64,000 bases of DNA from Candidatus Bathyarchaeota archaeon (GTDB taxonomy: Archaea; Thermoproteota; Bathyarchaeia; Bathyarchaeales; Bathycorpusculaceae), in assembly GCA_963780185.1 (NCBI GenBank), contig CAWABA010000006.1, forward strand, positions 768,001 to 832,000. The letters run 5' to 3'. Below, piece after piece: positions 1 through 43,729 of this stretch. The position numbers and the translations under genes are program-made. Below the pieces are notes generated by a model. The model worked only from the letters and a program-made list of their open reading frames with translations. It did no database searches and was not told the origin of the DNA. Position 1 is the first letter of the stretch, and each line of letters starts with the position of its first letter.

Positions 1-371
1 TTCTCGTATTTTGAGTCGAACTCCGAGACTAAAGCCACAAGTAAAGCGTCAACTTCGAAGCTGTCAAGACCGAACATTTCGGCAAGAACTTCAAGCCGTA
101 GCTCCGTTCCCTGCAGCTTGCACGCAATTTTTTCTTCGGCGATTTTCTGTGCCAACGTCTCTTGTTCTGCCCGAGTTTCAGCGTTTGATTCATTCGCCTC
201 GGTTTCTTTTGCTATAAGTTGGTCGATTTCTTCTTCAGAAATGAAAAGGCCTGGGAAAGTTTGGTTCTTGCTTGATTTGCGCCAATGCTGGATGCTTTCG
301 GCAACGATTAGGTCGATTCTTTTGAGTTCATCCAGAATATGCTTTAGGTTGCTTGCTTGTAGGGGATTCAT
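1..371 (-). CDS. eCIS AAA+ ATPase (Afp15-like), N-terminal part; truncated by window edge
   Basis: Not in ORF track. Manual translation from ATG 371: MNPLQASNLKHILDELKRIDL...GLFISEEEID...LRLEVLAEMFGLDSFEVDALLVALVSEFDSKYE, matching the LxxxFGLxxFExDxLLxALxxExDxxY N-terminal signature of eCIS ATPases. Confidence 0.8.
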   Translation of the reverse strand, partial: MNPLQASNLKHILDELKRIDLIVAESIQHWRKSSKNQTFPGLFISEEEIDQLIAKETEANESNAETRAEQETLAQKIAEEKIACKLQGTELRLEVLAEMFGLDSFEVDALLVALVSEFDSKYE

Positions 372-454
372 GCCTTGCGTTGCTGGGTCGCTGGTTGCTG
401 ATGTAATTTACCGTACGCTCCTAATTATCGTCTCGATGCCGCCGCTGGAGCCGT

Positions 455-2344
455 CTAGTTGATGGTGGCGTTTATCATCAAAGATGCCTGTTTTGTGCTG
501 CCTTTGTAGACGTCGTTGGTTGTGAAGGTTTCTCCGGGATAGTTAACTTGGAGGGTATAGTTGCCTGCCACTACGGTCTCTTCGCCCGCTAGTTGGAAGC
601 TTAGTTTTCCCGTGGAATCTGAGTTGTTGGGCCCTTTAGTGATTTTTTTGTTTTCAGGGTTGGTTACATCAAGAGTAATGCCGTGAAGGATGGTACCTTT
701 TGGAGGGGCAGTAACGGCGACTGCGATGGTTACCGGGTAGCCCGTCGTAACTTTAGGGGGGTTTGCAGCAATTTTTATTATGGATGTGTTTGTCGGCGCC
801 TTGACGACAAGGGGATTTGACGCTGTGCAAGCCATGTAATTCACGTTGGCGCTCGCGAAGAGTTCTCCAGAGTAATCGACCTTAATTGTGTAGGTGCCTA
901 CTGTCGAAAAAGCTACGTTTGGAATGGAAAACTTGCCGCTGCCGTCCGAGTTGTAAGTTCCTTGCTGTATCGCATTTCCAGCAGGGTCTATAAGTGTTAG
1001 TTTAATGCTGTGGAAAGCGTCAGCGGATGTTGGTGGAGCAGGAGTTATTGAGCCGTTAATCGAAAGCGATTGCCCAGCGGTTATGGTTGCGGGGGTTGTG
1101 TCGAAGGTCATTGAAGTTTCAACTGGAACGTTAAGGATAATCCAGCTTTCAAAAAGACCGCCTTCGGAACTGTCGCCTGTCGGCAGTTTCCCGCCCAAAA
1201 GGTCGCCGTCTAAGGATTTCCCGTCGTTGTCAAGCACACAGTCGCCTTTTATTCGAATAACCAATCTAAGTTTCGAGTAGTTTTTGCTGATTTCAGGCCC
1301 GAAGTATTGGGGTGCGTTTTCTCCGAAGACATTCAAGTCAAGGTGCACTCGGGCAATAGTTTTCTTTGCGGGTAACAAACCGACAGCGCTGCAGGCAGGC
1401 GTAATGGCGAGGTCTTTCTTCTCGATAAATGGATTGCGCCTTCGATTGTTACTGTAGCATTCAAGCGTTAAAGATACAGTGTCTTCGTTAATCGTCGCCG
1501 TATCCATCAGTCGATCGAAAACCACGAGGAAACCTTCATTGCTAAAGAGTCTATCACGCCACAACTGCGAGTCAGTAAAAGTATTGCCGTGTTTCCAGTT
1601 CATTTCTTGGACTTTCGGCAGGTCCTTCTCAACTTCGTTTTTGAGGCACTGCAGCAGATTGTAAAGGGTTCCGTTCCCAAATACGAGGTTTCGGCTATTG
1701 CCTATCTGATTGATGGTTATGGTGCCGTCTGCGTTCCGTGTGAAGTACACTTCGGCGAGAAGAACCGCGCCTTCATTCGAGGGAGAACAAGTAGTTTTGC
1801 AGAAGCCGTCCTTGCTTGTGTCGCTGCGGTAATCATTCCATTCAGCGCAGATGTCCTCGGTATGGAGGGGACTCAGGACTAACAGGTTCTGCAGAACGAT
1901 TTTGAAGCCCTCTTGCAGGGTGCTGTAGCAGCAGTTGTCCTTGCAGTTGGATGCTTTCAAAACGTTGGTGGCTGGGTCTAACCCGCAGAAATCATATTTT
2001 ATGTAAACTTTTGCGGGGCTGGTTGCTGTTGGCGAAAGATTCGGTGCAAAACTGTAACTGTAAGGTTGGGCGACAACTATTTCTCGTCCACAGGGGTCCA
2101 ACGCGACTCCTGGCGAGACGATGATGTTTGTTGTTGTGCCGTCTTGGGTGACTTGTAAGCCGCAGACGACTCCGACGCCGTGGATGAGTCTGTTTGCGAG
2201 GCGTTGTTTGTTGATGAAGTATTGCTGTTCCATGCGGAAGTCGTTTACGGTTAGTAGTTTGCCGTAAAAGTAGTTATTTCGCCTAAACGTGGGGAACGAT
2301 TCACATTGCACGTCGGCTATATCGGTTGTGTTTGTATCTGACAT
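455..2344 (-). CDS. Putative eCIS tail fibre/baseplate-attached protein with two C-terminal Ig-like domains
   Basis: N-terminus RNNYFYGKLLTVNDFRMEQQYF...HGVGVVCGLQV...VSPGVALDPCGREIVV is typical of eCIS fibre N-domains. C-terminus has two similar ~105-aa beta-rich repeats (NSDGSGKFS...VGTYTIKVDYSGE / NSDSTGKLS...AGNYTLQVNYPGE). ATG 2344 preferred over TTG 2365. Confidence 0.75.
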   Translation of the reverse strand: MSDTNTTDIADVQCESFPTFRRNNYFYGKLLTVNDFRMEQQYFINKQRLANRLIHGVGVVCGLQVTQDGTTTNIIVSPGVALDPCGREIVVAQPYSYSFAPNLSPTATSPAKVYIKYDFCGLDPATNVLKASNCKDNCCYSTLQEGFKIVLQNLLVLSPLHTEDICAEWNDYRSDTSKDGFCKTTCSPSNEGAVLLAEVYFTRNADGTITINQIGNSRNLVFGNGTLYNLLQCLKNEVEKDLPKVQEMNWKHGNTFTDSQLWRDRLFSNEGFLVVFDRLMDTATINEDTVSLTLECYSNNRRRNPFIEKKDLAITPACSAVGLLPAKKTIARVHLDLNVFGENAPQYFGPEISKNYSKLRLVIRIKGDCVLDNDGKSLDGDLLGGKLPTGDSSEGGLFESWIILNVPVETSMTFDTTPATITAGQSLSINGSITPAPPTSADAFHSIKLTLIDPAGNAIQQGTYNSDGSGKFSIPNVAFSTVGTYTIKVDYSGELFASANVNYMACTASNPLVVKAPTNTSIIKIAANPPKVTTGYPVTIAVAVTAPPKGTILHGITLDVTNPENKKITKGPNNSDSTGKLSFQLAGEETVVAGNYTLQVNYPGETFTTNDVYKGSTKQASLMINATIN

Positions 2345-2382
2345 CTCAGCGCACTCTCGGTTCAATTGTATCGTAAGTATGT

Positions 2383-3492: not shown

Positions 3493-3493
3493 T

Positions 3494-4364: not shown

Positions 4365-4365
4365 G

Positions 4366-7575: not shown

Positions 7576-7577
7576 GG

Positions 7578-7982: not shown

Positions 7983-7987
7983 CGCTC

Positions 7988-8290
7988 CTACCCTATTATC
8001 ACCGTTAAACACCCGTTAACTATCGTGTTGGGGGGACCTGCTTCGCTGATGATGTCGCCAACCCGTGCTGCAGGCAAATTGTTGATTAAAACAGTGGTGC
8101 TTCCCATCATGACGACGCCGCCTACGTGGGGGTTAGGGGTTGACAGGGGACAGGAATGAACGTCAGATGTTGCTCTCCAAGCAGGCTGCCCGCCTATCAG
8201 AACGTTTGAGCTGCCTAGCCCAGGAGACAGGGGGCTTCCATGACTTGTCAAATCTCCAACTCTTGCTGCCGGCGGCATACCATCCATCAA
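7988..8290 (-). CDS. PAAR-domain spike tip protein
   Basis: PAARVGD twice, PAWR, His/Cys ligands, C-terminal TVIIG; no C-terminal effector extension. Confidence 0.95.
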   Translation of the reverse strand: MMDGMPPAARVGDLTSHGSPLSPGLGSSNVLIGGQPAWRATSDVHSCPLSTPNPHVGGVVMMGSTTVLINNLPAARVGDIISEAGPPNTIVNGCLTVIIG

Positions 8291-8293
8291 CTC

Positions 8294-10008: not shown

Positions 10009-10014
10009 CGTGGG

Positions 10015-10695: not shown

Positions 10696-10697
10696 GC

Positions 10698-11648
10698 TTA
10701 TCCCCTCCGTTCCCGCTCGATACGGGCTTTTCTCTCAATTAGCTGGTAAACTTTATCCGCAAGCACATTCAAATCCGAAGCAGCCGTCTTCTGCTGGGTT
10801 CTGGCGGCTGCCGATTCATCGTCTGCCTGCTTCATCCTATTTCTTGCTATTTGTGACTGATTACTTATAAAATGTTCTTCAGCCCCCAACCCGTCGCCTC
10901 CAACGCCTCGCGGATTTCCCTTTTCATGAGCCGTTTCAAGCAGCCTAAGAGCAAGAGGCGCCTCAACATTGCCACCTTCCCCAACCCTTACACGACTAAC
11001 TACGGTTCTTTCAGAAAAAGAATGAAGCCTTTTAGAATGGACAAGTATCGATTGCGCAAAAAGGGTCCTGCGTGATTCTTGAAAAAGCCTGGCTTTTTGG
11101 GTTTGCAAGGCAACCTCGGTTTGGGCATATGGAGGGCTGGGTGTTTTAGCTGCAAGTTCAACTTCTTTGGTCATTGGAGATTTTTGCGGAAGCTGAAACG
11201 ACGTTCCATTGGACAGAACCAAACCCACTGGCGAAGCCAAAAGCAAACGTTCAGTCAAAAATGTCGTTTTGGGAAAGAAGTTCAGAGCCGTAAGAGCACT
11301 TGTTTTGACAACTGAGCTTTCGTACGTCGTCGATAATGACTGGCGTGGCGCCGCAGGCTCGGAGGAAAAAATCTGCGTTTGATAGTTAAGCGTTACTGGC
11401 TGATTGTTTATGGTCTGGTGGATGCGTTTTTGGGTTGTGGCGTCGCTTTTCTGAAAAAGGGTTGTGTAACGGTTGACAAGCATGAAGGGCAGCCTGTGGA
11501 TGAAAGCGATTCGTGATGGGAAAGCCATCGCGGGACCTGCCGCGGGCTTCAGAAGCCGTCGCCGGGCGAAAGCCAAATGCCTACTTATTTTGCAGTCAAA
11601 AACGCTAAAGTCCATCAGCGCCAATTTTGGTCGGGTTCCGAGCGGCAT
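10698..11648 (-). CDS. eCIS-associated low-complexity protein with conserved C-terminal helix
   Basis: Ends DLNVLADKVYQLIERKARIERERRG, a motif typical of the gene between tube and LysM genes in eCIS loci; remainder S/T/Q-rich. Confidence 0.6.
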   Translation of the reverse strand: MPLGTRPKLALMDFSVFDCKISRHLAFARRRLLKPAAGPAMAFPSRIAFIHRLPFMLVNRYTTLFQKSDATTQKRIHQTINNQPVTLNYQTQIFSSEPAAPRQSLSTTYESSVVKTSALTALNFFPKTTFLTERLLLASPVGLVLSNGTSFQLPQKSPMTKEVELAAKTPSPPYAQTEVALQTQKARLFQESRRTLFAQSILVHSKRLHSFSERTVVSRVRVGEGGNVEAPLALRLLETAHEKGNPRGVGGDGLGAEEHFISNQSQIARNRMKQADDESAAARTQQKTAASDLNVLADKVYQLIERKARIERERRG

Positions 11649-11650
11649 CT

Positions 11651-12079
11651 TTACCCCTTTTCCAGCCCTTCATGAACCAGCTCCAACGTTTCAATCGCAA
11701 CTGTGCTGCTGTCAGCTTTAAGGTCGGGTCCAACCCATTTGACGGGGTAAGCGTTTTTGAAGTGCCAACGCCACTTCTCGTTTCCTTCAAGGTCGATAAG
11801 TATCACGGCGCCTGAAGCCCGTTTTACTATTCCGTTGATTACGTCTTGGTGCCAACCCCACAGAGCCGTCGAGTCGCCGAGTCCCCTTTTAAGAACCAGA
11901 TTTGGGTACCGGGTTTTCTTGGGAAGCTTATGCACATAATCGTTGACGCCGCCTTCCTCAACCGTTTCAACTTCGGTTTCCGCCTGCAACCCCGAAACCT
12001 CAGAAAAGCCGCCTACGATGAAACCTTGAATCTCAACAAGAAACCTGAAAGCCACGTAAGGGTTCTTTTCTGACTGCAC
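11651..12079 (-). CDS. Tail tube protein gp19 (Afp1/5-like)
   Basis: PYVAFRFLVEI, GGFSEVSGL, EGGVN.YVHKLP, NLVLKRG, AYPVKWVGP.L.A, AIETLELVHEG. Confidence 0.95.
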   Translation of the reverse strand: MQSEKNPYVAFRFLVEIQGFIVGGFSEVSGLQAETEVETVEEGGVNDYVHKLPKKTRYPNLVLKRGLGDSTALWGWHQDVINGIVKRASGAVILIDLEGNEKWRWHFKNAYPVKWVGPDLKADSSTVAIETLELVHEGLEKG

Positions 12080-25307: not shown

Positions 25308-26702
25308 ATGGAAAGAAAGTTAGTAACGATTGCCTTAATTCTCTTGATGTTCTCAGCGCTCTTTCCATTTACCAAAGTTGAAGCTAACGCCAAAACCATA
25401 GTTGTGCCAGATAATTACAGAACCATAACCGATGCAATCGGTAATGCTACAAACGGAGATGTGATACTTGTAAGATCAGGTTTTTACAGCGAAATCCAAT
25501 TAGATTCAAACGTTTCTCTGTCATTGATAGGTCAAGGAGCAAGTACGACCACAATTAGCTTGCATCCACCTATTGTTAATACGACTATTGGGGACGTCAC
25601 ACTATCGGGATATGCCTCTCCTATCCAAATAAACGCTAACAACGTAGTCATATCAGGCTTTACTATAACCAGCACAGGCGGAAATCTTGCAATTAACGGA
25701 AATAACGCATGGCTAGCAAACAACGATTTAGCTGTCAACATTGCACTAAGCGGAAACTATGAAACTGTAACAAATAACACATTGAATCTTTCAGTAAACC
25801 CGATATTGGGAATAGGAATAGGCGGCTCTTACAGCAAAATTTGTCAAAACACTGGAACAGGCTTAATTGCGGTTGGTTCTGGGTCTTACAATAACGTTTT
25901 TGCTAACACAATAACTGGTGAAATCGGAGGCTTTGGAACTAGTTATTCCAACCTTTACTACAATAACGTGGTAGACGGCGGGATGGGCATGTCTGCTGCG
26001 ACCGGAGATTTTGTCGCCAATAACACTGTAGAAAACTGCGATCATGGCATTAGCATAGTAAATGGCTACAACAATTTGGTTATAGGAAATACAGTCGCAA
26101 ATAATGCCGGGGCAGGATTAATCAAGAAGGAAGGTCTAGCCAATTTGTTCTATGCAAACTACGTCGCCAACAATGGATTTGGCGTACAAATCGGCTCAAA
26201 TCAAATTGGTAATACCACTCTTTACGACAACGACTTCATTAATAACAGTAAGCAAGTCCAATATCTTTTCCCAGGTTCAATCGATCATTGGAATGAAAAT
26301 CAAGGCAACTATTGGAGCGACTACTCATCCAAGTATCCTAATGCTTCCCAAATAGACTCATCGGGAATTTGGGACACGCCCTACAACATTACAAACGGTG
26401 AACAGGACAATTATCCTCTGATCAGTCCCTTTGACATTTCAACCATCAATACTCAGTTACCAATTTGGGGAGATATCAACAATCCAACCCCACTACAATT
26501 ACCTTCGTTTCCTCCTCAAAAGCCGTTATCAAGCCCAACCTCAACTCCTGTGTCCTCATTTGCCCCCACAATGGCGCCAAGCCCAAGCTCAACTCCAACC
26601 GTTCCAGAGTTGTCTTGGTTGGTGCTTGTGCCTTTGCTTCTTTCCGTGTTCGCTGTTGCTGTGATTGTTAAGCATCGAAAAGACGTTAAAGCTAAGCGAT
26701 AG
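25308..26702 (+). CDS. Secreted beta-helix (NosD/CASH-like) surface protein with PEF-CTERM-like anchor
   Basis: Signal peptide; TIVVPDNY.TI.DAI.NA..GD.I.V.SG.Y; GNYWSDY...SGIWDTPY; Pro/Ser/Thr linker; VPEL-TM-KHRK. Confidence 0.85.
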   Translation: MERKLVTIALILLMFSALFPFTKVEANAKTIVVPDNYRTITDAIGNATNGDVILVRSGFYSEIQLDSNVSLSLIGQGASTTTISLHPPIVNTTIGDVTLSGYASPIQINANNVVISGFTITSTGGNLAINGNNAWLANNDLAVNIALSGNYETVTNNTLNLSVNPILGIGIGGSYSKICQNTGTGLIAVGSGSYNNVFANTITGEIGGFGTSYSNLYYNNVVDGGMGMSAATGDFVANNTVENCDHGISIVNGYNNLVIGNTVANNAGAGLIKKEGLANLFYANYVANNGFGVQIGSNQIGNTTLYDNDFINNSKQVQYLFPGSIDHWNENQGNYWSDYSSKYPNASQIDSSGIWDTPYNITNGEQDNYPLISPFDISTINTQLPIWGDINNPTPLQLPSFPPQKPLSSPTSTPVSSFAPTMAPSPSSTPTVPELSWLVLVPLLLSVFAVAVIVKHRKDVKAKR

Positions 26703-27228: not shown

Positions 27229-28215
27229 TTGAATAAGAAAATTCTAGCTTTAAGTCTCATTTTAGTGTTAACAGTAGTGTACGTAACTTCAGTTTCAATA
27301 TCTACATCTAAAGCTCAAACAACCAGCCAGCAAACAACCGGTGGATGGATTACCTCGTACACCGTGAAAAACGCCAACAACCAAGCAACAATCATAGACA
27401 CATCCTCACACCAAAACGGCTACATATTAGAAGGCGACGAGTTAGCGGTCACCGCAACAATCAGCATCAGCCAAAGCAGCCCCTCCACAAGTCTATCGTT
27501 AACAACAAGCCTCCAGCACTCAGATTTACAGCAAAACATGTACTGGGAGCTTGACTCAACAAACTATAACCTCGGAGACTTTAACCCCAACTCACGGACC
27601 ATAACGTTCGCGGAGAACTCAGGCACCCTCCAGATTACCTGTTTCGGACTTGTTCCATCAGGGTCAGTAACCCAGAGCGGTCCCAACGGCATAACCTTAG
27701 ACATTCCAACCCCACTCAACCTGATTGTCCTTGAAGACCCAAGCGGCGCAACCCTTGACTCAGTCACCGTAAACATAACAGACTCCGCAATCAACAATTA
27801 CCTCAACGTTCTCAGCCAAAGAGAAAACACACTCAAAGGCTACAAGAGCTCAGGCGTTGACTCAGGATTCACACAGATTTACCAAAACGTCATTGACGCA
27901 TCCAAAGTTATGGAAGGCCAAGGCTTCGCAACTGCCGCTACCCAGATGCTTAACGGATTAAACGTCGCTTCACCTCCATCAGCAAGTACAGCGGGAATCC
28001 TTATCCCGGTTGCAGGTGTTATGGCAGCTGTAGCGGTTGTTTTTGCGTTCCTGTTCATGCGGATAAGAGGCAAAGTCAGCTACTTCCAACTTGTCGTTGA
28101 AGACCAAATCAAGGACTTAGAAGGCTTGAGCATGAGAATCTCAAGAATCGACAGAGCAGCTTCCTCAAACCTGGAATCAGTCAAAGACAGACTCAAAAGA
28201 TTAGTCGGAGCGTGA
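27229..28215 (+). CDS. Type I single-pass membrane protein (signal peptide, S/T/N-rich ectodomain, TM, ~50-aa cytoplasmic helical tail)
   Basis: MNKKILALSLILVLTVVYV; TM ILIPVAGVMAAVAVVFAFLFM; tail VEDQIKDLEGLSMRISRIDRAASSNLESVKDRLKRLVGA; 6 bp before the tubulin-like gene. Confidence 0.8.
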   Translation: MNKKILALSLILVLTVVYVTSVSISTSKAQTTSQQTTGGWITSYTVKNANNQATIIDTSSHQNGYILEGDELAVTATISISQSSPSTSLSLTTSLQHSDLQQNMYWELDSTNYNLGDFNPNSRTITFAENSGTLQITCFGLVPSGSVTQSGPNGITLDIPTPLNLIVLEDPSGATLDSVTVNITDSAINNYLNVLSQRENTLKGYKSSGVDSGFTQIYQNVIDASKVMEGQGFATAATQMLNGLNVASPPSASTAGILIPVAGVMAAVAVVFAFLFMRIRGKVSYFQLVVEDQIKDLEGLSMRISRIDRAASSNLESVKDRLKRLVGA

Positions 28216-28221
28216 TAAGAA

Positions 28222-30909
28222 ACGAGAATTTACCAAAACAGTGTACAAGTGATCGGACTCGGTTCAGCAGGAACCAACATTGTAGAAACCTTCCTGACAA
28301 ACAAAAAAACCAGAGAGCTAATACAAAACGACCTCACAAGACTTTCGCTCTTAGCCATAGACATCGCTGACCCCGAAATCAGAAGCCTGCAGGAAACCTA
28401 CGAAGGCATCGAAAAATCCATGGTGAAAGCAGGCATACCCGCAGAAAGAATGCGCCTAATCGCCCAGTCAGTAAAGTTCCCAACAGCAGAAGCAATGTTT
28501 GACTTCATCAACCAGAAATACGGCGAATACCTCATCGGCGAAGGAGCCAAACTTGTCTTTCACCCTTGGCTGGAAACCACAATGGCTATTCCACCAATGG
28601 CCGGAGGCGCAGGCAGACGACGAGCCTTAGCCAAAGCAATCTACGCATTAAACTACTATCAACTCGGAATCATCAAAAACTGCATAAACAGCTTCAAAGA
28701 ACAAGCCCTCTCAGGAATCATCACGCCAACAGTGATTATTTGCTATGGTCTTGGCGGAGGCACAGGAAGCGGAGTATTCTTCGATTTCGCAAGGCACCTA
28801 CGAAAAGTCTTAGGTTCAGGCGTCGCAATCATAGCCTTCGTAGTCACCCCGTGCGGCGGAGACGATCCCCCAGCTAAAGGATGCTCAGCTTTCACTGTCA
28901 ATGAACGAGCTATCCCTGTTCCTCAATAAAGATTACAACGAATACGTCGTTAAAGAGTACGGTGAATGCTACCGAAACCCACTCAACGCCCTCATCTACC
29001 TGCCACTGCTGCCTGCCTACTGCAAAGTCGGCAACATCGTTAGCGCCCGAAGAGAAATGGACGACATGGTTGTCGACATGCTATACGTCTTGATGGACTT
29101 TGACTTAGCAGACTTAATGGGCGGAATCGGCACCGAAGTCGGCTTAACCTACAACTCAGCGCACACGTTGGGCATGGTAAAAGTCGAATTACCCAGTTGA
29201 AGAATACATTTCAGCCTACAAACTCAACTTCGAAGGCATCCAGCTGCTCCAAGACCTCAGAAGAGAAAAACTTGATATCCTCGACGAAATCGGCAACATC
29301 ATCGCCGTCGACCACGACGTAACAAGGGAACTCTTCCGCAACTACCTCATAAAAGCAGGCACATTCAACGAAGAACAATTCGAAGACAAACTGAAAACCG
29401 AAATCACCAGCAACCCACGACTTGAAGACGACCAAGAACTCCACGTCAAAGGCGTCGAAATACAGGTCAAAAACTGGCTTGCCGAAATCATGAAGCTTCT
29501 GTCAACCATAAAACTGATGGGAAAAACAGGCCCAATCGAAGACTCCATCATAAACCTCACACTGAAGAAAGAAGGCTCAAGAAAAATCGACAACTTAGAA
29601 ACCTTGCTAACCAACCTGACGAAGACGCATTTGGAATTCCGCGAGAAAAAAGCGCTCATCGTCGAACGACTCAACCAGCTTATCCCAAGCTCACAAGTGT
29701 TCACTGTTAGGCAAAAGAAGATTCTTGAAGACTTAGTCAACTTGGCGGAGATTGCTGAGAGAGCGCTGGATTTACAGCAGTTCTACGATGAAACCCGATA
29801 CTTAACTGACGCATTAATCAGGTACTATGAAGTTCTTCCTGAAAGCCAAAACGAACTCAACGACCTAAGAGACATCCAAGCAGAACTCTCAACAGTTTAC
29901 CTAATAATTCAACTCATGCTCAGAACACCCGCCGACGAAGCAAAAATGATCGACGAACACGTAACCTTCATCAACGAAATATTGGCAAGACGCATGCAGA
30001 ACCGAGGCAACTTCGACAACGAAGTCATGAGAGTACAAGAAACAAAGAAACGCAAAGAATTCGACAAAGAAAAGCTAGAGAGGCAATCAAGAAAACTCTT
30101 CGGCGGAAAACGCTACGCAAGAGAACAGCTTATGGAACTTGACAGGGACCTGAAGCGGATAGAGGAAGAAGAAGCCTTTGCGCTTGACAACCTAGGCAAA
30201 GTCGACGGCATAATCAACCTTTACGAAACTCTGGGCAAACGCTTTGAGTTAACCTCAGAATACCGCAAGAGACTCGGCAAGATCGTTGACATAAACCAAG
30301 AATACCAGGAAATGGTTGACCAAATCGTTGCACCAAAGAAGTTCTTCGAAAAATCAGCGGACCTAACAGAGACGGAGCAGCTTAGAATAATCTTCAAGAT
30401 ACTTACTGAACAGGAAGAAGGCCTCACCAGAGAAGTCATCAACAAAGACATCTTGGATTTGGAGCACTTCAAAGACTACATACGAAGCATAATCAGAGCC
30501 TTCAAGACACCGACCATCATGGGCTACAAGACCAACCTACAAAACCGACTACATCTGGGTCACCATAGTTTCGCCGCCTAACATGTGGACCGAAGACCTC
30601 TCACAGGAAGTCTACACGGCACTCGCAGGATACGTCACAAGCGAAGTATCAAGAACCATCACCGTCCGAGTCATCGAATCCCGAGACGCATGGACCACAA
30701 GAGTGCTAGTAATCGGCGGAAGAGGAAAACCCGAAGACATGGAAGCATACGACGAAATGCAGCTACTCTACAACAAATCAAACGACTTCGAAAGACACCT
30801 ATCCCGAAGCTACCTACTCGAACACGGCGTCTCAGCAGCAAACATCATCAAAAAAGTCAACGCAGAAAACGGCATAGCCCAACCAGCTAACAACAGCAAC
30901 AAAAAGTAA
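28222..30909 (+). CDS. Large tubulin/FtsZ-superfamily GTPase with inserted coiled coil (~894 aa after removing 3 single-base insertions at ~28897, ~29186, ~30530)
   Basis: T1 VIGLGSAGTNI, T2 LAIDI, T3 GAGRRRALAK, T4 GLGGGTGSG, T7 DFDLADL. ORF pieces 28249-28929, 28901-29200, the frame 29187-30581 and 30583-30909 join by three -1 corrections. Confidence 0.82.
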
Positions 30910-30911
30910 AA

Positions 30912-32082
30912 TCAGGCAGGAACTTCAGAAGAAGCTTCCTCATCCTTCTTTATACCCAAATTTTTCATCATACCCAACCATTCTTTTTTGTCCACAAAAC
31001 CCTTCTGCAAGGCGCGGCTTTTCAGGCTTTTAGATTTTTTTTCGTATTCAAGGAACATTTCTGTGGTTTCGAAGCCGCCGACAAACAAGATTACATCGAT
31101 GCGGTCGCTTGCGTCGTCAACGTAGATGGGTTCAGCTACGTAGATTGATTTAAGGTTGGCTTTTCCCTTAAACCACGTTGCTGCTGCCAACTCGATTTTT
31201 GCTCTCGGAAGCTTCTCTCTCATGCTTGAAGGCATACGGACAAGAACATAGAGCAATGAAACAGTGGATAAGTCAAAGTTCAAAAGCGGCTTAAGCAGGG
31301 TTGCGTCTAAGATGTTTTCGACTGTGCCGTAGATTTTGAAGCTTGCCCCCGGAGCCAGCAGCACAGTGTACATTTTAGCGCCGAAGGTTCTTGATTGCTC
31401 CGATAACTCTTCAACAAGCGTGTCTTTTGAGAGGAACAGGTTGACCAAGTAGTTGGCGACCAAGTTGCCTTTTATGAGTGAGCCAACCCGGTCGACGCCT
31501 TCATATTTTTCCAGCATGTCTCGCTCAAAAAGCAGAAGCGTCGCGCCATCTTCGTCCGCGCAGATGCCCAGTGAAGCAAGCGCGTTGAAGAAGGCGTCTG
31601 AAGGCTGAATTTTCGAGGGCAACAATCGCGATAGAAAGCGAGTTAATGTTGGAAGCTTTGAATTGCGAAATCAAAGTGGGAAGTGAAGCGCTGCCGATGC
31701 CATCCCACACCGAAGCCACCATAATTGCGTTACGCATTTTTTCAGTAGGCTTCTTCTTTAAGCCATTCATCAACGTTTCATCCTGTGAAACATACGGCAA
31801 AACGTTGTACCAGAAGTGAGTCTCAATGTTTGCGTCTTCAAAACCTAAAACCAAATGCGGATTAAACCCCTCTGGAAGCCACGTGTAAACCTCATCGCTT
31901 GACTTAGCCAACAGAACCTGCAGAGTTAACCCAGATTTGTCAACGTAGGGCTGCTTTAGCAGCACCTTAATCGGGTATTCACCGATGTAAACCGTAGCTT
32001 GCCTGGGAAGCAGCGGCTTCAAAGTCTCAATATGCTTCCTAACACTATCTAAAACGTTAAATGGCTTCTTAGACTCCGTCAT
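30912..32082 (-). CDS. Degenerate FtsZ/CetZ-like protein (~389 aa; frameshift at ~31626)
   Basis: YIGEYP at T1, VASVWDGIGSASLP at T4, IAILP...AFFNALASL, NLVANYL, LLKPLLNFDLSTVSLLYVLV, RIDVILFVGG. ORFs 31525-32082 and 30912-31625 join on removing one base. Confidence 0.65.
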
Positions 32083-32143: not shown

Positions 32144-34591
32144 TTGAAGAGACCCTCGCTAAAAATCTCTGGTATGAAAACGTGGTATAAAGAAAAGCAG
32201 CAGATAAGAAAAGAAAAAGAGATCGAGCGAAAAAAGAATGAGTCTTCAACGCTGAAGATGCTTACCTTCTTAGTAACACTTGTCGCCATGATAGTCGGGA
32301 TGTCTATTCTGCCGCTTTTCCCGTCGCCGCTGCCGATTTTCCTCGCAGTTTTGGTTGCATTCCTGGTTTATCAGTACCCAATTATAGGGATGCCTATAGG
32401 AGGAGCCATCCTCGGGTTAGGTTTGCTGTTTAACATAAGTCCCCCGCCTCCGCCTTTCACTACTACCCAGCCCATTTATTATTTCATTTCGTATTTGGGA
32501 AGTGAGCAGACGCGAGTGGGATTTGTTGTCGCGATTATGGCTTTGTTTATTGGTTTACCTATAGCTTTTAACCGCTACAAAAGCGTCCTTGCCATTGATT
32601 TCGGGATACTTGCGGTTGCTTGTCTTTCTTCTTCATCCACGTACTTCTTAGCTATCCCACTGCTTTTTGCTTCAGCAGTCTATTTCAAAAGACACGTTGC
32701 TCTATCCATCGTCTACTACGCCCTAATCACTATACCCCTTCAAGTGCTCCAGTATTATCAGTTTACAGTCAGCACCATTCCTCAACACGACTGGTGGAAC
32801 GTCGCTGGCTCGAGTCCTCCTTTTTTTGTTTCGCTGCATCCGATTTTCTCCAGCCTTGGCTCGTCCATTTCTCAATTTCGATTGTTTGACATATCCTCAG
32901 TTTTTAACCAAATCGCGGGGCAACTGACTTGGATTCCGAACGCAAACGACGCATACGGGCACAATCTTGGAAACGCCATGACCCAGTACCTTGACTCAGC
33001 GCCTGGCTTGATAATGTTCGTGATTATCGTGGTCGGTCTCGCCCTGGGAGGAATCTTCTTCATGAGACAACTAATCAGACTAGGCTCAGGCGGGTTAGGC
33101 GACAAACTTATGCCGATTTTCACAGCCACAATCGGCACTGCATTATTCTTCATCCTTATGGGTTCGCTTTCAACGCCTCTGGCTTTTTCCGCAGACGCTT
33201 CGCCTGGAACCCTGATTCTGGGAACCTTAGCCACCCTGGTCTTTACGCTTCCAATGGCTTTCGTAAACACCACACCAAAGCAGACGACGACGCCCCAGAT
33301 GATATTAGACAAACTTAACGGGCTCATCCAAAAGGCGCAGACGCTGGTTGACCAAATAAAAAATGTGAAAGCCAACATCCCCGTTGCCGTAAGTGTGCCT
33401 GAAGGAAAAATCTTAATCATCAAAGATAACCTCGAAGACATCTTGCGCAAATCGGAAAGCCAACTCTACGACCCCATCGAAATGGACAAAAAATTCGCCG
33501 AACTCGACACTGTCGGCGGAGAAATCGACCTGGTTGACTCGGAACTCAACGCTATTTTGGCGGAGTACCAGATTTTCGTTAACTGCGAATACGCAAATTG
33601 GGTAGGCAAACTTCGAGACATCGGCTTAGACGTAAAATCGACGCCAAACGCTGATTACCTAAAAGCGATGACTCTTGATGAACGAATTGAAGCCATCAAA
33701 CAAACCATGGAAGCGGGAAGAACCCTCGCAAAAGACGCCATGCAAACCACCGAGCCAATATACTTCGTTGTCAGGTCCCTCTACGACCCGAGCCTGCCCG
33801 AAACCAGCAGAGCAATAGAGTTCGCTAACCAAAAAATCGAGCAGAAAGAATCGCCGTGGATCGGCATAGAGGCACTGTACAACAGTTTGAACAACATGAG
33901 CCGTCAATACGGCGACGACATCAAAGCCTCAATGAAATACCTCAAAGAATCACTCTCGCCAATAGCAAACCTAAGCAGTGAAAGCGAGATGCTGCCTCCT
34001 GTTTTCGGCGACAACCTGCCCAAAGTGCTTGACTACGCCAAAAAAGCAGAAGGCATGAAACTCATCGTAGGCAAAAAAGCCGAGAAGGAAAAACTAAGCA
34101 TTGTCGACGTAATCTCCCTCAAAGACGACCTCCGAACATTCCTCGCAATGGCACAAGACGTCCTATCCATGCTCTACACAGAACTCGTCAGCGAAGAAGA
34201 CACAATAGACCGCCTGCTACCGACAAAAGAGTACCTCTGGGAATCAAACAGCACCCTACGCGAACGCCTAAAAAAAGCCACCGACGCATTGGCAAACACA
34301 TCAAACTACAAAATCAACCAAATAATGGAAAACCTGCCCAAAAGCTTAGCCTACGTAGACGAAACCGTGCAGACGCTGTCGCTCTACTGGGAACGCCGCG
34401 AGTTCCTGCTCAACTACCCCACAGCAGAAGCAGCCATAGAAGAACAACTGAAAACAAAGAACCGCCTCACGCCCAAAGACCTGCCTTTCAACCCTAAATT
34501 CGCAGGAGAATACCTAAGACTCTACTACAGCCAACGATTCAGCGATTTCGCCTTCGACAAAGACAACATGCAACTAACCAAAAAAGACTAG
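32144..34591 (+). CDS. Polytopic membrane protein (~10 TM) with ~430-aa cytoplasmic helical/coiled-coil region
   Basis: Hydrophobic segments across aa ~39-375, then a charged amphipathic helical region; divergent from the FtsZ-like gene across 61 bp. Confidence 0.8.
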   Translation: MKRPSLKISGMKTWYKEKQQIRKEKEIERKKNESSTLKMLTFLVTLVAMIVGMSILPLFPSPLPIFLAVLVAFLVYQYPIIGMPIGGAILGLGLLFNISPPPPPFTTTQPIYYFISYLGSEQTRVGFVVAIMALFIGLPIAFNRYKSVLAIDFGILAVACLSSSSTYFLAIPLLFASAVYFKRHVALSIVYYALITIPLQVLQYYQFTVSTIPQHDWWNVAGSSPPFFVSLHPIFSSLGSSISQFRLFDISSVFNQIAGQLTWIPNANDAYGHNLGNAMTQYLDSAPGLIMFVIIVVGLALGGIFFMRQLIRLGSGGLGDKLMPIFTATIGTALFFILMGSLSTPLAFSADASPGTLILGTLATLVFTLPMAFVNTTPKQTTTPQMILDKLNGLIQKAQTLVDQIKNVKANIPVAVSVPEGKILIIKDNLEDILRKSESQLYDPIEMDKKFAELDTVGGEIDLVDSELNAILAEYQIFVNCEYANWVGKLRDIGLDVKSTPNADYLKAMTLDERIEAIKQTMEAGRTLAKDAMQTTEPIYFVVRSLYDPSLPETSRAIEFANQKIEQKESPWIGIEALYNSLNNMSRQYGDDIKASMKYLKESLSPIANLSSESEMLPPVFGDNLPKVLDYAKKAEGMKLIVGKKAEKEKLSIVDVISLKDDLRTFLAMAQDVLSMLYTELVSEEDTIDRLLPTKEYLWESNSTLRERLKKATDALANTSNYKINQIMENLPKSLAYVDETVQTLSLYWERREFLLNYPTAEAAIEEQLKTKNRLTPKDLPFNPKFAGEYLRLYYSQRFSDFAFDKDNMQLTKKD

Positions 34592-40614: not shown

Positions 40615-43600
40615 ATGTCTAAAGTGATGACTGAGTCTGAGGTTGAGTATGTTTGTCTTTGTTTGCTTGGCGACTTAAACTATGCTGTTGCTTCTGGTCC
40701 TGACATCTCTGAGGGCGGTTTAGCTGCTGAGCGCGGGTATGGGGAGGTTGTGCTTATCGGACGACTCCAAGATGCGCTCAAGCGAATCAATAAGGGTGTT
40801 CCTGACTCGGCTATTGAGGAAGCCATAAAACGGGTTGTGCGAACGGACAGTCAGGATTTAGTTCAGAATAATCAGGCGTTCCATAAGCTGTTGGTTAACG
40901 GTGTGCCTGTTCAGTATAAGCGTGCAGACGGCAGCGTCAAAGACGATTCGCTGTGGCTTATTGATTTTAACGATATTAGAAACAATGATTTTTTGGCGGT
41001 CAACCAGTTTACGGTTATTGAGGAGCGAATTAATCGTCGTGCAGATATAGTTCTATTCGTTAATGGGTTGCCGCTTGTTCTAATCGAGCTTAAGAATCCT
41101 GCAGACGAGAATGCAAGCGTTTCCTCGGCGTACAAGCAGCTGCAGACTTACATGAAAGAGATTCCGTCGATTTTCCGCTTCAACGAAATCCTCGTCGCCA
41201 GCGACGGAACATACGCAAAAGCAGGAACCATCACTTCTCCCCAAGAGCGATTCACCGTGTGGAAAGAAAGCGAGGGCAAAAAACCCAATATCCCTTCTTC
41301 CGAAATCGAGCTACTCATCAACGGAATGCTAAAGCCCAACATACTGCTTGATCTGGTGCACAGCTACGTGGCTTTTGAACCAGAAAAACAAAAAGACGGC
41401 AGCATCAATATTTCTAAAAAAATCGCTCAATACCAACAGTATCGTGCAGTGCGAAAAGCGATTGCAAAAACTGTGGCGGCCAGTAAGGAAGATAGACGCG
41501 GCGGTGTGGTTTGGCATACTCAGGGGTCGGGAAAAAGCCTTACGATGGTTTTTTATGTGGGCAAGATGGTGCTTGAGCCAAAGCTGGAAAATCCCACAAT
41601 AATTATGCTAACTGACCGCAATGATTTAGGCGACCAGCTTTTTGACACGTTTGCCCGCAACCACGATTTGCTGCGCCAAGACCCAGTGCAGGCGATGACA
41701 AGGCAGGATTTGCAGCGGCTGCTTAAGGTGGCTTCAGGCGGCATCATCTTCACCACGATACAGAAGTTTTACCCCGAAGGCGACGATTACCCACAGCTAT
41801 CTGACCGCAGAAACATCATCGTCATCGCCGATGAAGCCCATCGGAGCCAGTACGGGTTTGGGTTGAAGGTGCCAAAAAACCTCGCCAAAGATGACCTCAA
41901 ATACGGCTACGCCAAGTACATGCGCGATGCCCTGCCAAACGCAACGTTTGTCGGCTTCACGGGCACGCCGATTGAGAAAGCAGACCATAACACCAGAAAA
42001 GTGTTCGGCGACTACATCGACGTCTATGACATCAAACAATCAGTTGAGGACGGCTCAACAGTCGGCATCATCTATGAAAGCCGCCTAGCTAAAATCGAGC
42101 TCAAACCAGAAGCACGACCCTACATCGACGAAAATTTTGAAGAAGTCACCGAAGGCGAAGAAGTTGAAGGCAAGGAATACCTCAAAAGCAAGTGGTCGCG
42201 GCTTGAAAAGGTAGTGGGCAGCCCCGACCGAATTAAACGGTTAGCCTCAGATATTGTGGATCACTGGGAGAAGCGGCTTAGCGTGCTAGATGGGAAAGCC
42301 ATGATTGTATGCATGAGCCGCCGCATCTGCGTGGAACTGCACCACGAAATCGTCAAGCTGCGCCCGCAATGGTATGACGCCGACGACAAAAAAGGAGGCC
42401 TAAAAGTTGTCATGACCGGCTCAGCCGCCGACGGACCCCAATGGCAGGAGCATATCCGCAATAAGCAGCGCCGCCATGAACTACTAGACCGCATGAAGGA
42501 CCCTTCAGACCCATTCAAAGTGGTTATTGTTAGGGATATGTGGCTGACTGGGGTTGATGTGCCCAGTTTGCACACGATGTACATTGATAAGCCGATGAAT
42601 GGGCACACGCTTATGCAGGCAATTGCCCGCGTTAACAGGGTTTTCAAAGACAAGAAATCCGGGTTAATTGTTGACTACATCGGTTTAGCGACTGAATTGG
42701 AGAAGGCGTTGGCAGAGTACACCGAGGGCAACCGAGAACTCGCGAAAATCCCGCATAGACGTCGCCGTTGAACGCATGATGGCGCACTACGAAGCAGTCT
42801 GCGACATGTTCCACGGCTTCGACGTCCGCCAATTCTTCACAGCCACCTCCAGCAGCGCATGGGCATAATGATGCAGGCAATGGAGCACATCCTAGCTCAG
42901 CAGGACGGCAAAAACCGCTACCTCAAAGAAGTCACCAACCTACTCTACGCATTCACCGTAGCCATGCCCCATGAAAAAGCAGTCGCAATCCGCGACGACG
43001 TAGGCTTTTTCCAAGCAGTCAAAGCAGCCATCGTAAAGAACACCGACACCAGAACCGTGCAAGAGGAAAACATGGATACGGCAATAAAGCAGATTCTTAT
43101 CTGAAGCGTTGGTTTCTGATCGGGTGATTGATGTTTTTGCAGCGGCAGGTTTCAAAAAGCCCAATTTGGAATTGTTCTCAGACGAGTTCTTGGAGAATCT
43201 GCGAACGATGCCTCAGAAGAACTTGGCGTTTGAAACCCTCAGGAAACTGTTAAGCGACCAGATACGTTTCCAACGCAAAAAGAACCTGGTGCAGGCACGC
43301 AGCTTTGAGGAGCTACTAGATAAGTCAATCAGGGCTTACATGAACCGCTCCATTGACACGGCGCAGGTTGTCCAGCAACTAGCCGATTTAGCCAAAACAG
43401 TGAAAGCGGTGAACGGCAGAGGAATCCCGCTTGGGCTCTCAGAGGAAGAAGTCGCCTTCTACGATGCATTAGCGGATAACGAGAGCGCTAAGCAGTTGCT
43501 TGGCGACAAAGTTCTAATGCAGATGGCGCGGGAACTCGTCGATATGATACGAAACAATGTTACCATTGATTGGACCATCCGCGACAATGTCCAGGCACAT

Positions 43601-43729
43601 CTGCGAGTCATGGTTAAAAAGCTACTTAAGAAATACAAGTACCCGCCTGACAAACAGGAAAAAGCCACGCAAACGGTATTGGACCAAGCTAAACTGCTCT
43701 GCAAAGACTGGGCAGAAACACAAAACTAA
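40615..43729 (+). CDS. hsdR: Type I R-M restriction subunit R (frameshifts at ~42752, ~42850, ~43097)
   Basis: [18 protein letters not shown] nuclease motif, [27 protein letters not shown]; C-terminal pieces 42859-43104 and 43109-43729 (TIDW...YKYPPD). Confidence 0.92.

What the first reader, a model, noticed from the sequence alone, without database searches (positions are those of the whole stretch)
28222..30909. Tubulin/FtsZ GTPase with a ~440-aa coiled coil apparently inserted inside the C-terminal domain (S7-H9/M-loop position)
Seen after three single-base corrections: the GTP-site motifs GLGSAG, GAGRR and GGGTGSG plus an FtsZ-like T7 loop DFDLADL (cf. NxDFAD). Then strand HTLGMVKVNYP, then ~440 aa of E/K/L/R-rich helix (nt ~29190-30520). 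Then YIWVTIVSP / WTEDLSQEVYTALAGYV / RTITVRVIES / TTRVLVIGG, which align by eye to FtsZ S8-H10-S9-S10. Inference: the fold is split rather than extended, with a long coiled-coil arm at the site used for lateral contacts in tubulin. That could act as a built-in cross-linker or membrane-reaching stalk, as in dynamin- or SMC-like proteins. The intact T7 suggests polymerisation-coupled hydrolysis.
Basis: partly seen in the sequence, partly recalled or inferred. Interest (0 to 1): 0.8.

Follow-up and report, generated by a model that had tools for sequence, protein, structure and literature searches.

The report
Split tubulin-like GTPase with helical arm
An archaeal gene, broken in this assembly by three probable sequencing errors, encodes a tubulin/FtsZ-type protein whose fold is interrupted by a roughly 440-residue helical arm, and it sits beside a hidden second tubulin-like gene and two membrane-protein genes.

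Summary
Window 28222-30909 is one gene of about 894 codons read in four frame pieces. Each of the three breaks is one extra base relative to five intact orthologues.

The breaks are probably assembly errors:
- Frame changes affect 22 of 146 genes compared across this genome.
- A near-identical public contig lacks the extra base at 30531.
- dN/dS is 0.067 over the four pieces, with no stop codons.

The protein belongs to Pfam Tubulin_2 (PF13809), the FtsZl1-like branch described in 2010 (PMC2875224).

- An AlphaFold2 model of an intact orthologue has pLDDT 89.1.
- It aligns to whole CetZ, tubulin and FtsZ chains across model residues 7..859-889, with Z 27.7 to CetZ.
- Natural relatives of 390-588 aa match the profile in two blocks and skip the helical middle.

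The 438-residue all-helical module is therefore an insertion between strands S7 and S8.

Two further findings: the convergent 388-aa neighbour is a cryptic second tubulin-fold protein (Z 27.7 to BtubA), and the start codon appears to be a conserved ACG.

Function is inferred: a membrane-tethered GTP-dependent polymer. This is a new variant of a known kind.

The parts
27229..28215 (+). M1: 328-aa membrane protein directly upstream of gene A, on the same strand. It has an N-terminal hydrophobic segment (5-23), a 233-aa acidic outer part, a TM helix (257-275) and a 53-aa K/R-rich tail with a conserved end.
   Evidence: ORF. Hydropathy. No Pfam family above cut-off. Found beside A in 77 of 79 other loci and in 14 of 15 more distant loci.
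28222..30909 (+). Gene A: tubulin/FtsZ-superfamily protein (Pfam Tubulin_2), about 894 codons, read here in four frame pieces.
28222..28224 (+). ACG, the probable near-cognate start codon of A.
   Evidence: At this codon position, ACG occurs in 72 of 91 loci and ATG in 5. ACG makes up only 138 of 1359 Thr codons elsewhere in the same genes. In 58 of 76 loci there is no ATG/GTG/TTG 8 or more codons before the G-box.
28255..28272 (+). T1 / G-box, GLGSAG.
   Evidence: G14, G16 and G19 are invariant in 18 of 18 sequences.
28603..28623 (+). GGAGRRR loop (T3 region).
   Evidence: G131, G132, R135 and R137 are invariant.
28753..28773 (+). T4 tubulin signature, GGGTGSG.
   Evidence: G181-G183, G185, S186 and G187 are invariant.
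28893..28898 (+). Frame break 1: one extra base (frame 1 to 2).
   Evidence: Alignment to five intact orthologues. Not covered by run X1.
29096..29116 (+). T7 loop, DFDLADL.
   Evidence: D297 and D300 are invariant.
29162..29195 (+). Strand S7 (HTLGMVKV.YP), ending at invariant P327.
   Evidence: Model strand 316-325. P327 is invariant.
29185..29187 (+). Frame break 2: one extra base (frame 2 to 0).
   Evidence: Not covered by run X1.
29196..30509 (+). Inserted all-helical module: 438 codons, L013 residues 328-765, lying between invariant P327 and P766.
   Evidence: Helices 328-380, 386-398, 402-434, 440-449, 461-466, 468-492, 498-539, 545-569, 572-627, 632-677, 682-705, a short strand 712-714, and helices 719-730, 735-738, 740-746, 749-764. 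Skipped by the short relatives. dN/dS 0.062.
30530..30531 (+). Frame break 3: one extra base (frame 0 to 1).
   Evidence: A 234-base contig of run X1 with one other mismatch leaves out one base at 30531.
30510..30906 (+). C-terminal block that completes the tubulin/FtsZ C-domain (S8, H10, S9, S10), followed by three helices and an Asn-rich tail.
   Evidence: Model strands 780-786, 815-821 and 827-837; helices 793-806, 845-853, 857-862 and 874-890. Structural alignments reach model residues 837-889.
30912..32082 (-). Gene B: cryptic second tubulin-fold protein (about 388 aa), convergent with A. It is broken here by one frame change near 31621-31625. The T4 loop is degenerate (WDGIGSAS) and the T1 loop reads IGEYP.
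   Evidence: Sub-threshold PF00091 match, E 0.0011. AF2 model with pLDDT 74.1, pTM 0.78. VIA-align wide search: BtubA Z 27.7, 332 of 413 aligned; the 17 top rows are all tubulin-superfamily, then Z 8.0.
32144..34591 (+). M2: 815-aa membrane protein, divergent from B. It has a K/R-rich N-terminus, about 8-10 hydrophobic segments (40-374) and a 441-aa soluble C-terminal part.
   Evidence: No Pfam family above cut-off. Beside the cluster in 73 of 79 loci.

Best explanation
What it is (shown). Window 28222-30909 is a single gene for an approximately 894-residue member of the tubulin/FtsZ superfamily, in Pfam Tubulin_2, the FtsZl1-like branch. The three frame breaks are single extra bases and are most likely assembly errors, not biology.

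The protein has a complete two-domain tubulin/FtsZ fold with intact nucleotide loops T1 and T4 and an acidic T7 loop. A 438-residue all-helical module is inserted between strand S7 and strand S8 of the C-terminal domain, so the last ~130 residues return to finish that domain.

The gene belongs to a four-gene module conserved across Bathyarchaeia:
- M1, a membrane protein encoded directly upstream;
- A, this gene, apparently starting at a conserved ACG one to three codons after the M1 stop;
- B, a convergent 388-aa protein with a tubulin fold but degenerate nucleotide loops;
- M2, a large polytopic membrane protein.

How it works (inferred, not shown). A forms GTP-dependent head-to-tail protofilaments through the canonical T7-to-nucleotide-pocket contact. 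The helical hairpin arm leaves the body on the C-domain side, at the site where tubulin carries its M-loop/H9. It acts as a spacer or stalk that ties the polymer to the membrane proteins M1 and M2, or to neighbouring filaments. B, which probably cannot bind or hydrolyse GTP normally, caps, nucleates or alternates with A.
For: One gene, not several:
- Nine same-genus genomes have open frames of 889-905 aa.
- In 79 further loci, A is at least 90% covered with no frame change in 74.
- dN/dS to the G003 orthologue is 0.051-0.065 in each of the four pieces, with 0 stops in 873 codons.

Breaks are likely errors:
- 28 frame changes in 22 of 146 G000 genes compared with G003 frames of 200 aa or more.
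- An X1 contig lacks the base at 30531.

Family:
- PF13809 scores 51 bits on the window piece and 57 bits on the orthologue, against a cut-off of 27.
- All 8 of the 10 relatives scanned that score above the cut-off are the same family.

Split fold:
- AF2 pLDDT 89.1, pTM 0.77.
- CetZ: Z 27.7, 310 of 342 aligned, model range 7..859. Tubulins: Z about 24, model range 7..882. FtsZ: Z 23.0-23.6, model range to 837-850. The chain aligned only over its N-terminal part stops at 269.
- 9 of 21 distant relatives match in two blocks and skip the middle.
- A 1069-aa relative (P0089) is colinear over profile positions 12-876.
- Invariant P327 and P766 flank the insert.

Module:
- M1, A, B and M2 occur in the same arrangement in 10 of 15 loci from other families, plus one locus cut by a contig end.
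- M1 is present in 77, B in 77 and M2 in 73 of 79 loci.

B fold.

ACG start.
Against: - The window cluster has 4 frame changes in about 3.9 kb. The genome-wide rate outside A and B is 24 changes per about 49,800 aligned residues, which predicts about 0.4 changes in A. The local excess is unexplained.
- Break sites 1 and 2 were not covered by any public contig.
- The split fold rests on a predicted model and on first/last aligned residues only. I could not inspect coordinates or strand pairing.
- Nothing here shows GTP binding, polymerisation, membrane association or any A-B, A-M1 or A-M2 contact.
- Three loci of one genus (L131-L133) carry M1 and A without B, and one locus (L129) has A alone. 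B is therefore not obligatory.
- The vWA, GTPase, kinase and OmpA partners described for FtsZl1 operons (PMC2875224, Findings) are not among the four genes.
Confidence: 0.78

Rival explanations
1. The gene, and its neighbour B, are real recent pseudogenes in this strain. The extra bases are in the DNA and the module is decaying.
For: There are three breaks in A and one in B within about 3.9 kb, well above the genome-wide rate measured (about 0.4 expected in A). None of the three sites is a long homopolymer. Gene A is not found in 11 of 24 same-genus genomes with the piece-1 query, so the module is dispensable.
Against: A near-identical contig of run X1 (one other mismatch in 234 bases) lacks the extra base at 30531. 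Frame changes hit 22 of 146 genes genome-wide, a rate not expected of a living genome. dN/dS is 0.067 and there are no stops in 873 codons once the frames are followed.
Confidence: 0.12
2. The architecture is linear, as originally described for FtsZl1: GTPase domain, coiled coil, then an independent C-terminal domain. On this view the predicted packing of the tail onto the core is a modelling artefact.
For: Makarova and Koonin found no similarity between the FtsZl1 C-terminal domain and FtsZ/tubulin C-domains, and could not align T6-H7 (PMC2875224, Findings, read in full). No Pfam FtsZ_C or Tubulin_C match was found at E <= 1 for the window tail or at E <= 0.1 for the orthologue. The two longest classic-type relatives (P0146, P0150; 1139-1145 aa) show no C block.
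Against: Whole-chain structural alignments run through model residues 837-889 with 295-362 residues aligned. Short relatives join the N and C blocks with only 27-94 residues of their own between them, for example P0128 365 to 393 and P0038 327 to 422. The pTM of 0.77 points to a confident domain arrangement.
Confidence: 0.07
3. The three +1 frame changes are programmed: ribosomal +1 frameshifting or four-base decoding.
For: All three shifts go the same way, 1 to 2 to 0 to 1.
Against: Orthologues are uninterrupted in 74 of 79 loci and in nine same-genus genomes. The three sites share no motif. The third site is absent from a near-identical contig. Frame changes elsewhere in the genome go both ways.
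Confidence: 0.01

Closest known systems
FtsZl1 / Pfam Tubulin_2 (PF13809), Makarova and Koonin 2010 (PMC2875224)
   Same: It scores above the Pfam cut-off. It has an N-terminal FtsZ-like GTPase with GGGTGSG, a long helical or coiled-coil middle, a C-terminal globular part, family-specific inserts between T1 and T4, and membrane proteins next door. It co-exists with or replaces FtsZ. A 1069-aa relative with the strongest Tubulin_2 score (89 bits) is colinear with it, including the C block.
   Different: The paper reports that T6-H7 and a tubulin-type C-domain could not be found, and describes the tail as mostly alpha-helical. Here H7, T7 (DFDLADL), S7 and an alpha/beta tail that completes the C-domain are all seen. 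It is about 150 residues shorter than the type protein. No vWA, P-loop GTPase, kinase or OmpA gene is in the module. The partner B is itself a tubulin fold. The paper's additional files could not be opened, so I cannot say whether this subfamily was in their set.
CetZ (archaeal tubulin-like cell-shape proteins; 3zid, 4b45, 4b46)
   Same: Best structural match to the body of A: Z 27.0-27.7, rmsd 3.2-3.6, 310-324 residues aligned over the whole chain. Both are archaeal and both have helices after S10.
   Different: CetZ chains have 330-342 residues and no insertion. Sequence identity is only 15-16%. A is recognised by Tubulin_2, not as a CetZ. No phylogeny was made.
Eukaryotic, Asgard and bacterial tubulins (alpha/beta, BtubA/B, OdinTubulin, AtubA/B)
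   Same: Both A (Z 21.8-24.4) and B (Z 26.0-27.7) superpose on whole tubulin chains, including the C-terminal helices. Two different tubulin-fold genes sit side by side, as in BtubA/B. The insert sits between S7 and S8, where tubulin has the M-loop and H9 used for lateral contacts (recalled knowledge of tubulin).
   Different: No Tubulin_C Pfam match. Sequence identity is 9-14%. B has degenerate T1 and T4 loops. A and B are convergent, not co-directional. No evidence of a heterodimer.
Dynamin/BDLP-type and SMC-type GTPase/ATPase heads with helical stalks
   Same: A nucleotide-binding head from which an antiparallel helical hairpin leaves and returns within one chain. Residues 571-708 align to an SMC coiled-coil segment (Z 11.1), F-BAR (Z 11.0) and ESCRT-III hairpins (Z about 10).
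   Different: These Z values lie within the range the tool gives for any long helical hairpin (below about 13), so they show shape only. The head is a tubulin fold, not a dynamin or ABC fold. This is an analogy of design, not membership.

Membership tests
Tubulin/FtsZ superfamily | Glycine-rich T4 signature GGGTG(S/T)G and T1 G-box | tested here: met
   GGGTGSG at 28753-28773 and GLGSAG at 28255-28272. The glycines are invariant in 18 of 18 aligned sequences.
Tubulin/FtsZ superfamily | T7 (synergy) loop with acidic residues after core helix H7 | tested here: met
   DFDLADL at 29096-29116 follows model helix 275-294. D297 and D300 are invariant. The equivalence to FtsZ NxDFAD is from recalled knowledge.
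Tubulin/FtsZ superfamily | Two-domain fold: Rossmann-like GTPase domain, H7, and a C-domain with sheet S7-S10 | tested here: met
   Predicted model only. CetZ Z 27.7 with 310 of 342 aligned over model 7..859. 17 tubulin-superfamily rows lead the unbiased search, then Z 11.1.
Tubulin/FtsZ superfamily | GTP binding, GTP-dependent polymerisation | not testable with these tools
Pfam Tubulin_2 (PF13809) / FtsZl1 | Score above the family's gathering cut-off (27 bits) | tested here: met
   51 bits for window piece 1 and 57 bits for the intact orthologue. It is the only such gene in the genome.
Pfam Tubulin_2 (PF13809) / FtsZl1 | Architecture: N-terminal FtsZ-like domain, extended coiled coil, C-terminal domain (PMC2875224) | tested here: met
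   Helical region 328-769 followed by a ~130-residue tail. The tail is alpha/beta and part of the tubulin fold, unlike the published description.
Pfam Tubulin_2 (PF13809) / FtsZl1 | Operon partners: vWA-domain protein, P-loop GTPase, Ser/Thr kinase or OmpA-like protein (PMC2875224) | tested here: not met
   M1, B and M2 have none of these Pfam domains. Only the four adjacent genes were examined.
Canonical FtsZ | FtsZ_C domain recognisable by sequence; length about 360-400 aa | tested here: not met
   No FtsZ_C match at E <= 1 or 0.1. Length is about 894 aa. Canonical FtsZ frames of 358-383 aa exist in other genomes of the same family.
CetZ | Placement in the CetZ clade of a tubulin-superfamily tree | not tested
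   Best structural match only. No tree was built.
Tubulin proper (for gene B) | Intact GGGTGSG and Tubulin/Tubulin_C Pfam matches above cut-off | tested here: not met
   PF00091 scores 19.8 bits against a cut-off of 33. T4 reads WDGIGSAS. Only the fold matches.

The most novel reading that the evidence does not exclude
A and B together build a membrane-anchored, two-component tubulin-like cytoskeleton. Its subunits carry their own ~8-nm helical spacer arms. In a clade of Bathyarchaeia this system has taken over the role of FtsZ in division or envelope shaping.

The hint comes from 61 genomes of the family that are at least 90% complete. Eight of the 10 that carry A show no FtsZ-type frame, whereas 44 of the 51 without A do. 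The 16 genomes also covered by the profile search agree. These genomes are related to one another, so this may reflect a single evolutionary event.
Probability: 0.15. Interest if true: 0.85.

Novelty: new variant of a known kind. Interest (0 to 1): 0.6.

Why it matters
FtsZl1/Tubulin_2 proteins have been treated as the most aberrant branch of the tubulin superfamily. They have been described as lacking the C-terminal domain that makes filaments (PMC2875224, Findings; PMC9871819, passages), and have been used only as an outgroup.

If the C-domain is present but split by a 438-residue helical module, these proteins can be expected to polymerise by the ordinary tubulin/FtsZ mechanism. The module becomes a natural example of a large domain grafted at the lateral-contact face of a tubulin fold.

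The cryptic tubulin-fold partner B passes no Pfam cut-off. Together with the two membrane proteins, it defines a compact, testable four-gene system in an abundant uncultured archaeal class. Several lineages of that class appear to lack FtsZ.

The conserved ACG at the start position is a rare candidate for near-cognate initiation coupled to termination of the upstream gene in archaea.

Tried and rejected
- Complex prediction with A(1-350) + A(760-890) + B: no verdict, score 0.00 in both runs. No conclusion on binding.
- The look-up of sequencing runs: no RNA holder listed. Only one DNA run (X1) holds part of the stretch, with a word share of 0.17. X1 did not cover break sites 1 and 2 or the break in B. 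X2 and X3 gave nothing usable.
- The search for related loci with the 34-row alignment failed for lack of a conserved stretch. It worked with an alignment of 18 full-length rows, but the 80 loci kept were all close Bathyarchaeia relatives.
- hmmalign of the short relatives placed only their N block. The two-block result therefore rests on the hmmsearch domain table.
- NCBIfam gave no match for A, B, M1 or M2. PADLOC gave none for A, B or M2 and only a 13-bit chance-level match for M1.
- ESM Atlas: the helical insert scored 0.81 to Tubulin_2 clusters, which is below the 0.9 lead level. M2 matched only unnamed Bathyarchaeota clusters.
- hhalign of the B family against the A family: probability 11%, E 0.0027, at the T4 region only. 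The B profile against PDB sequences: AtubB2 E 0.023, CetZ E 0.14. These were suggestive, and the question was settled only by the fold search.
- Five other overlapping ORF pairs in the window were tested as possible frameshifts. They proved to be separate genes or had no split domain.
- The 690-aa 'short' orthologue in G022 is an artefact of a 100-N scaffold gap.
- The helical arm matched no specific fold. The best Z values, 10-11 to SMC, F-BAR and ESCRT-III hairpins, are at noise level for helices.
- Literature searches found no paper describing a split C-domain or this module. Supplements were closed.
Full report
**The observation**

The region 28222-30909 has no single long frame. Four overlapping frames carry one continuous protein-like reading: frame 1 to about 28893, frame 2 to about 29186, frame 0 to 30530, then frame 1 to the stop at 30907-30909. 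Piece 1 scores above the curated cut-offs of Pfam Tubulin_2 (51 bits against 27) and Tubulin PF00091 (35.7 against 33).

**One gene or several**

A search of 41 related genomes with piece 1 found a match in 14, of which 13 were among 24 same-genus genomes. Nine genomes have one uninterrupted frame of 889-905 aa.
- The four window pieces align end to end on the 897-aa frame of genome G003 at 75-87% identity.
- Nucleotide alignment to five intact orthologues shows exactly three one-base extras in the window, at 28893-28898, 29185-29187 and 30530-30531.
- In 79 further loci from other species, the gene is at least 90% covered with no frame change in 74.
- dN/dS between the window copy and G003 is 0.051-0.065 in each piece and 0.067 overall, with no stop in 873 codons.

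So this is one gene under strong purifying selection.

**Are the breaks real**

I compared 254 G003 frames of 200 aa or more (from 400 kb) with the window's whole genome. Of these, 146 had a counterpart at 60% identity or better. 22 of the 146 show 28 frame changes in this genome. That rate points to residual indel errors in the assembly.

A 234-base contig of public run X1 is identical to the window except for one mismatch, and it leaves out one base at 30531. That is exactly break 3. Breaks 1 and 2 were not covered.

Against this, four breaks in about 3.9 kb (three in A, one in neighbour B) is more than the genome-wide rate predicts, and none of the sites is a long homopolymer. I put assembly error at roughly 0.85 and a real, very recent pseudogene at about 0.12. 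Programmed frameshifting is rejected: orthologues are intact, the sites share no motif, and site 3 is absent from a near-identical contig.

**Family**

A scan of 1.84 billion representative proteins with the intact orthologue found only 170 proteins at E <= 0.001.
- About 13 are full-length relatives of 858-916 aa at 28-51% identity (phmmer identities).
- One such cluster is named 'tubulin-like domain-containing protein' from Dehalococcoidia.
- Shorter relatives are 450-590 aa.
- A few classic long forms are 1069-1145 aa.

Eight of ten scanned are above the Tubulin_2 cut-off. This is the FtsZ-like 1 family of Makarova and Koonin. [quoted passage not shown] They could not find T6-H7 or a tubulin-type C-domain (PMC2875224; I read the Findings section in full). 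A 2023 survey repeats that Tubulin_2 proteins lack FtsZ_C and Tubulin_C (PMC9871819, passages only).

Names attached to homologues place the organism in Bathyarchaeia.

**The split fold**

AlphaFold2 on the G003 orthologue with a 34-row alignment gave pLDDT 89.1 and pTM 0.77. The order of elements is:
- S1 to S6 with T4 after strand 172-179;
- H7 at 275-294;
- the T7 loop DFDLADL;
- S7 at 316-325;
- about 440 residues of helices (328-769, individual helices up to 56 residues);
- strand 780-786, helix 793-806, strands 815-821 and 827-837;
- three more helices.

Foldseek finds CetZ, TubZ and FtsZ, with best E 2.5e-6. VIA-align results:
- CetZ 3zid_B: Z 27.7, rmsd 3.2, 310 of 342 residues aligned, spanning model 7..859 and chain 1..343.
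- Tubulins: Z about 24, about 357 of about 426 aligned, spanning model 7..882.
- FtsZ: Z 23.0-23.6, reaching model residues 837-850.
- A chain aligned only over its N-terminal part ends at model residue 269.

In the unbiased search of 48,161 chains, the first 17 rows are all tubulin-superfamily and the next row has Z 11.1.

There is independent sequence evidence as well. Of 21 more distant relatives, nine (P0038, P0061, P0046, P0060, P0053, P0104, P0128, P0142, P0131; 390-588 aa) match the family profile in two blocks. The N block ends at profile position 217-327. The C block starts at 757-835 and ends at 858-878, with i-Evalue between 1.5e-17 and 0.006. Only 27-132 of their own residues lie between the blocks. 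Three more show the same pattern more weakly. A 1069-aa relative is colinear through the C block.

Invariant prolines P327 and P766 flank the insert. In the window the insert is 29196-30509, or 438 codons, and it is as constrained as the core (dN/dS 0.062).

Two caveats apply: it rests on a predicted model, and I saw only the first and last aligned residues.

The arm is modelled as antiparallel hairpins. Residues 571-708 resemble SMC, F-BAR and ESCRT-III hairpins only at the noise level for helices (Z 10-11).

**Surroundings**

The gene is the second of a conserved module.
- Directly upstream is M1 (27229-28215). It has an N-terminal hydrophobic segment, an acidic outer domain, one TM helix and a 53-residue basic tail.
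- Convergent with A is B (30912-32082, minus strand, one frame change near 31621-31625).
- Divergent from B is M2 (32144-34591), with a basic N-terminus, about 8-10 hydrophobic segments and a 441-residue soluble part.

In 79 loci, M1 is present in 77, B in 77 and M2 in 73. In 15 loci from other Bathyarchaeia families:
- 10 show all four genes in the same arrangement;
- 1 is cut by a contig end;
- 3 (one genus) have M1-A followed by other genes and no B;
- 1 has A alone.

A profile search of 301 genomes of the class found matches in 68, with full-length ones in four families.

**Gene B is a hidden tubulin**

B has 933 homologues, all unnamed and without precomputed Pfam domains in the 120 listed. 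Only weak sequence signals exist, all at the T4 region: PF00091 E 0.0011, hhalign to the A family at 11% probability, and Asgard tubulin AtubB2 at E 0.023.

Its AlphaFold2 model has pLDDT 74.1 and pTM 0.78, and is poor for residues 40-104. It matches whole tubulin chains: BtubA Z 27.7 with 332 of 413 aligned, OdinTubulin 26.9, gamma-tubulin 25.7, CetZ 25.1 and FtsZ 21.1. The next unrelated row has Z 8.0.

Its T4 loop reads WDGIGSAS and its T1 loop IGEYP, so normal GTP binding is doubtful. A test of A-B binding gave no verdict.

**Start codon**

In 58 of 76 loci there is no ATG, GTG or TTG 8 or more codons before the G-box within the open frame. The peptide T(R/K)IYQNSVQ is nevertheless conserved.

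The codon 11 positions before the G-box (window 28222-28224) is ACG in 72 of 91 loci and ATG in 5. In five more loci, ACG sits one codon further upstream. Elsewhere in the same genes, ACG is the rarest Thr codon, at 138 of 1359.

The M1 stop lies one to three codons upstream. I infer near-cognate ACG initiation coupled to M1 termination. This is untested.

**Genome context**

The window's genome has no other PF00091 or PF13809 match and four sub-threshold Snf7-like matches. Among 61 genomes of the family that are at least 90% complete:
- 10 carry A, and 8 of these show no FtsZ-type frame;
- 51 lack A, and 44 of these have a 265-383-aa FtsZ-type frame.

Detection of A by PF00091 is near threshold, and the genomes are related to one another. 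This is a lead, not a test.

**Mechanism**

Shown:
- membership of the superfamily;
- intact and invariant T1, T4 and T7 residues;
- a predicted complete fold with an inserted helical module;
- a conserved four-gene module with two membrane proteins and a second tubulin fold.

Inferred:
- GTP-dependent head-to-tail assembly of A;
- the arm acting as a stalk or spacer toward M1, M2 or neighbouring filaments;
- B as a non-hydrolysing cap, nucleator or alternating subunit;
- a role in membrane or envelope shaping, or in division.

**Verdict**

The finding is real and its structural reading is right. It belongs to a family known since 2010, so it is a new variant of a known kind rather than a new kind. 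What I found in none of the papers searched or read (searches; supplements closed) is:
- the recognition that the C-domain is present but split;
- the cryptic tubulin partner;
- the module;
- the ACG start.

Noticed in passing
window 28222-28224; loci L048-L142: The probable start codon of the tubulin-like gene is a conserved ACG: 72 of 91 loci, with ATG in 5. ACG is only 138 of 1359 Thr codons elsewhere in these genes. It lies one to three codons after the stop of the upstream membrane-protein gene. This suggests near-cognate initiation coupled to termination.
   Followed up: partly
window 30912-32082 (minus strand): The neighbouring 'hypothetical' gene encodes a full tubulin fold (BtubA Z 27.7). 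It passes no Pfam cut-off and has degenerate T1 and T4 loops. It is broken here by one frame change near 31621-31625.
   Followed up: yes
whole genome G000: Frame changes relative to intact G003 frames occur in 22 of 146 genes compared (28 changes in 51,055 aligned residues). The assembly therefore carries many indel errors, and any 'split gene' in this genome should be treated with suspicion.
   Followed up: yes
61 genomes of the same family: Genomes carrying the long tubulin-like gene mostly lack a canonical FtsZ-type frame (8 of 10). Those without the gene mostly have one (44 of 51). The genomes are related, so this may be a single evolutionary event.
   Followed up: partly
L131-L133 (G166, G252, G144): A second module type: M1 and an 872-873-aa A are followed on the same strand by a 756-770-aa protein and a ~350-aa protein, with no gene B.
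   Followed up: no
window 7578-8290 (minus strand): Baseplate gp25-like (PF04965, 94.6 bits) and PAAR-motif (PF05488, 67.3 bits) genes lie side by side within a run of large minus-strand genes at 455-12079. This looks like a contractile-injection-system or phage-tail-like cluster in an archaeon.
   Followed up: no
window 40615-43729: The C-terminal part of a type I restriction endonuclease subunit (PF11867 positions 131-328 of 329) stands as a separate 206-aa ORF downstream of a 718-aa ORF. It may be another gene split by an assembly error.
   Followed up: no
window 25308-26702: A NosD/beta-helix protein with a Pro/Ser/Thr-rich linker and a C-terminal hydrophobic anchor lies upstream of the module. 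It is not part of the conserved synteny seen in G003.
   Followed up: no
L022 (G022) 824-2893: An apparently shorter 690-aa orthologue runs across a 100-N scaffold gap (1706-1805). It is an artefact, not a natural deletion of the arm.
   Followed up: yes
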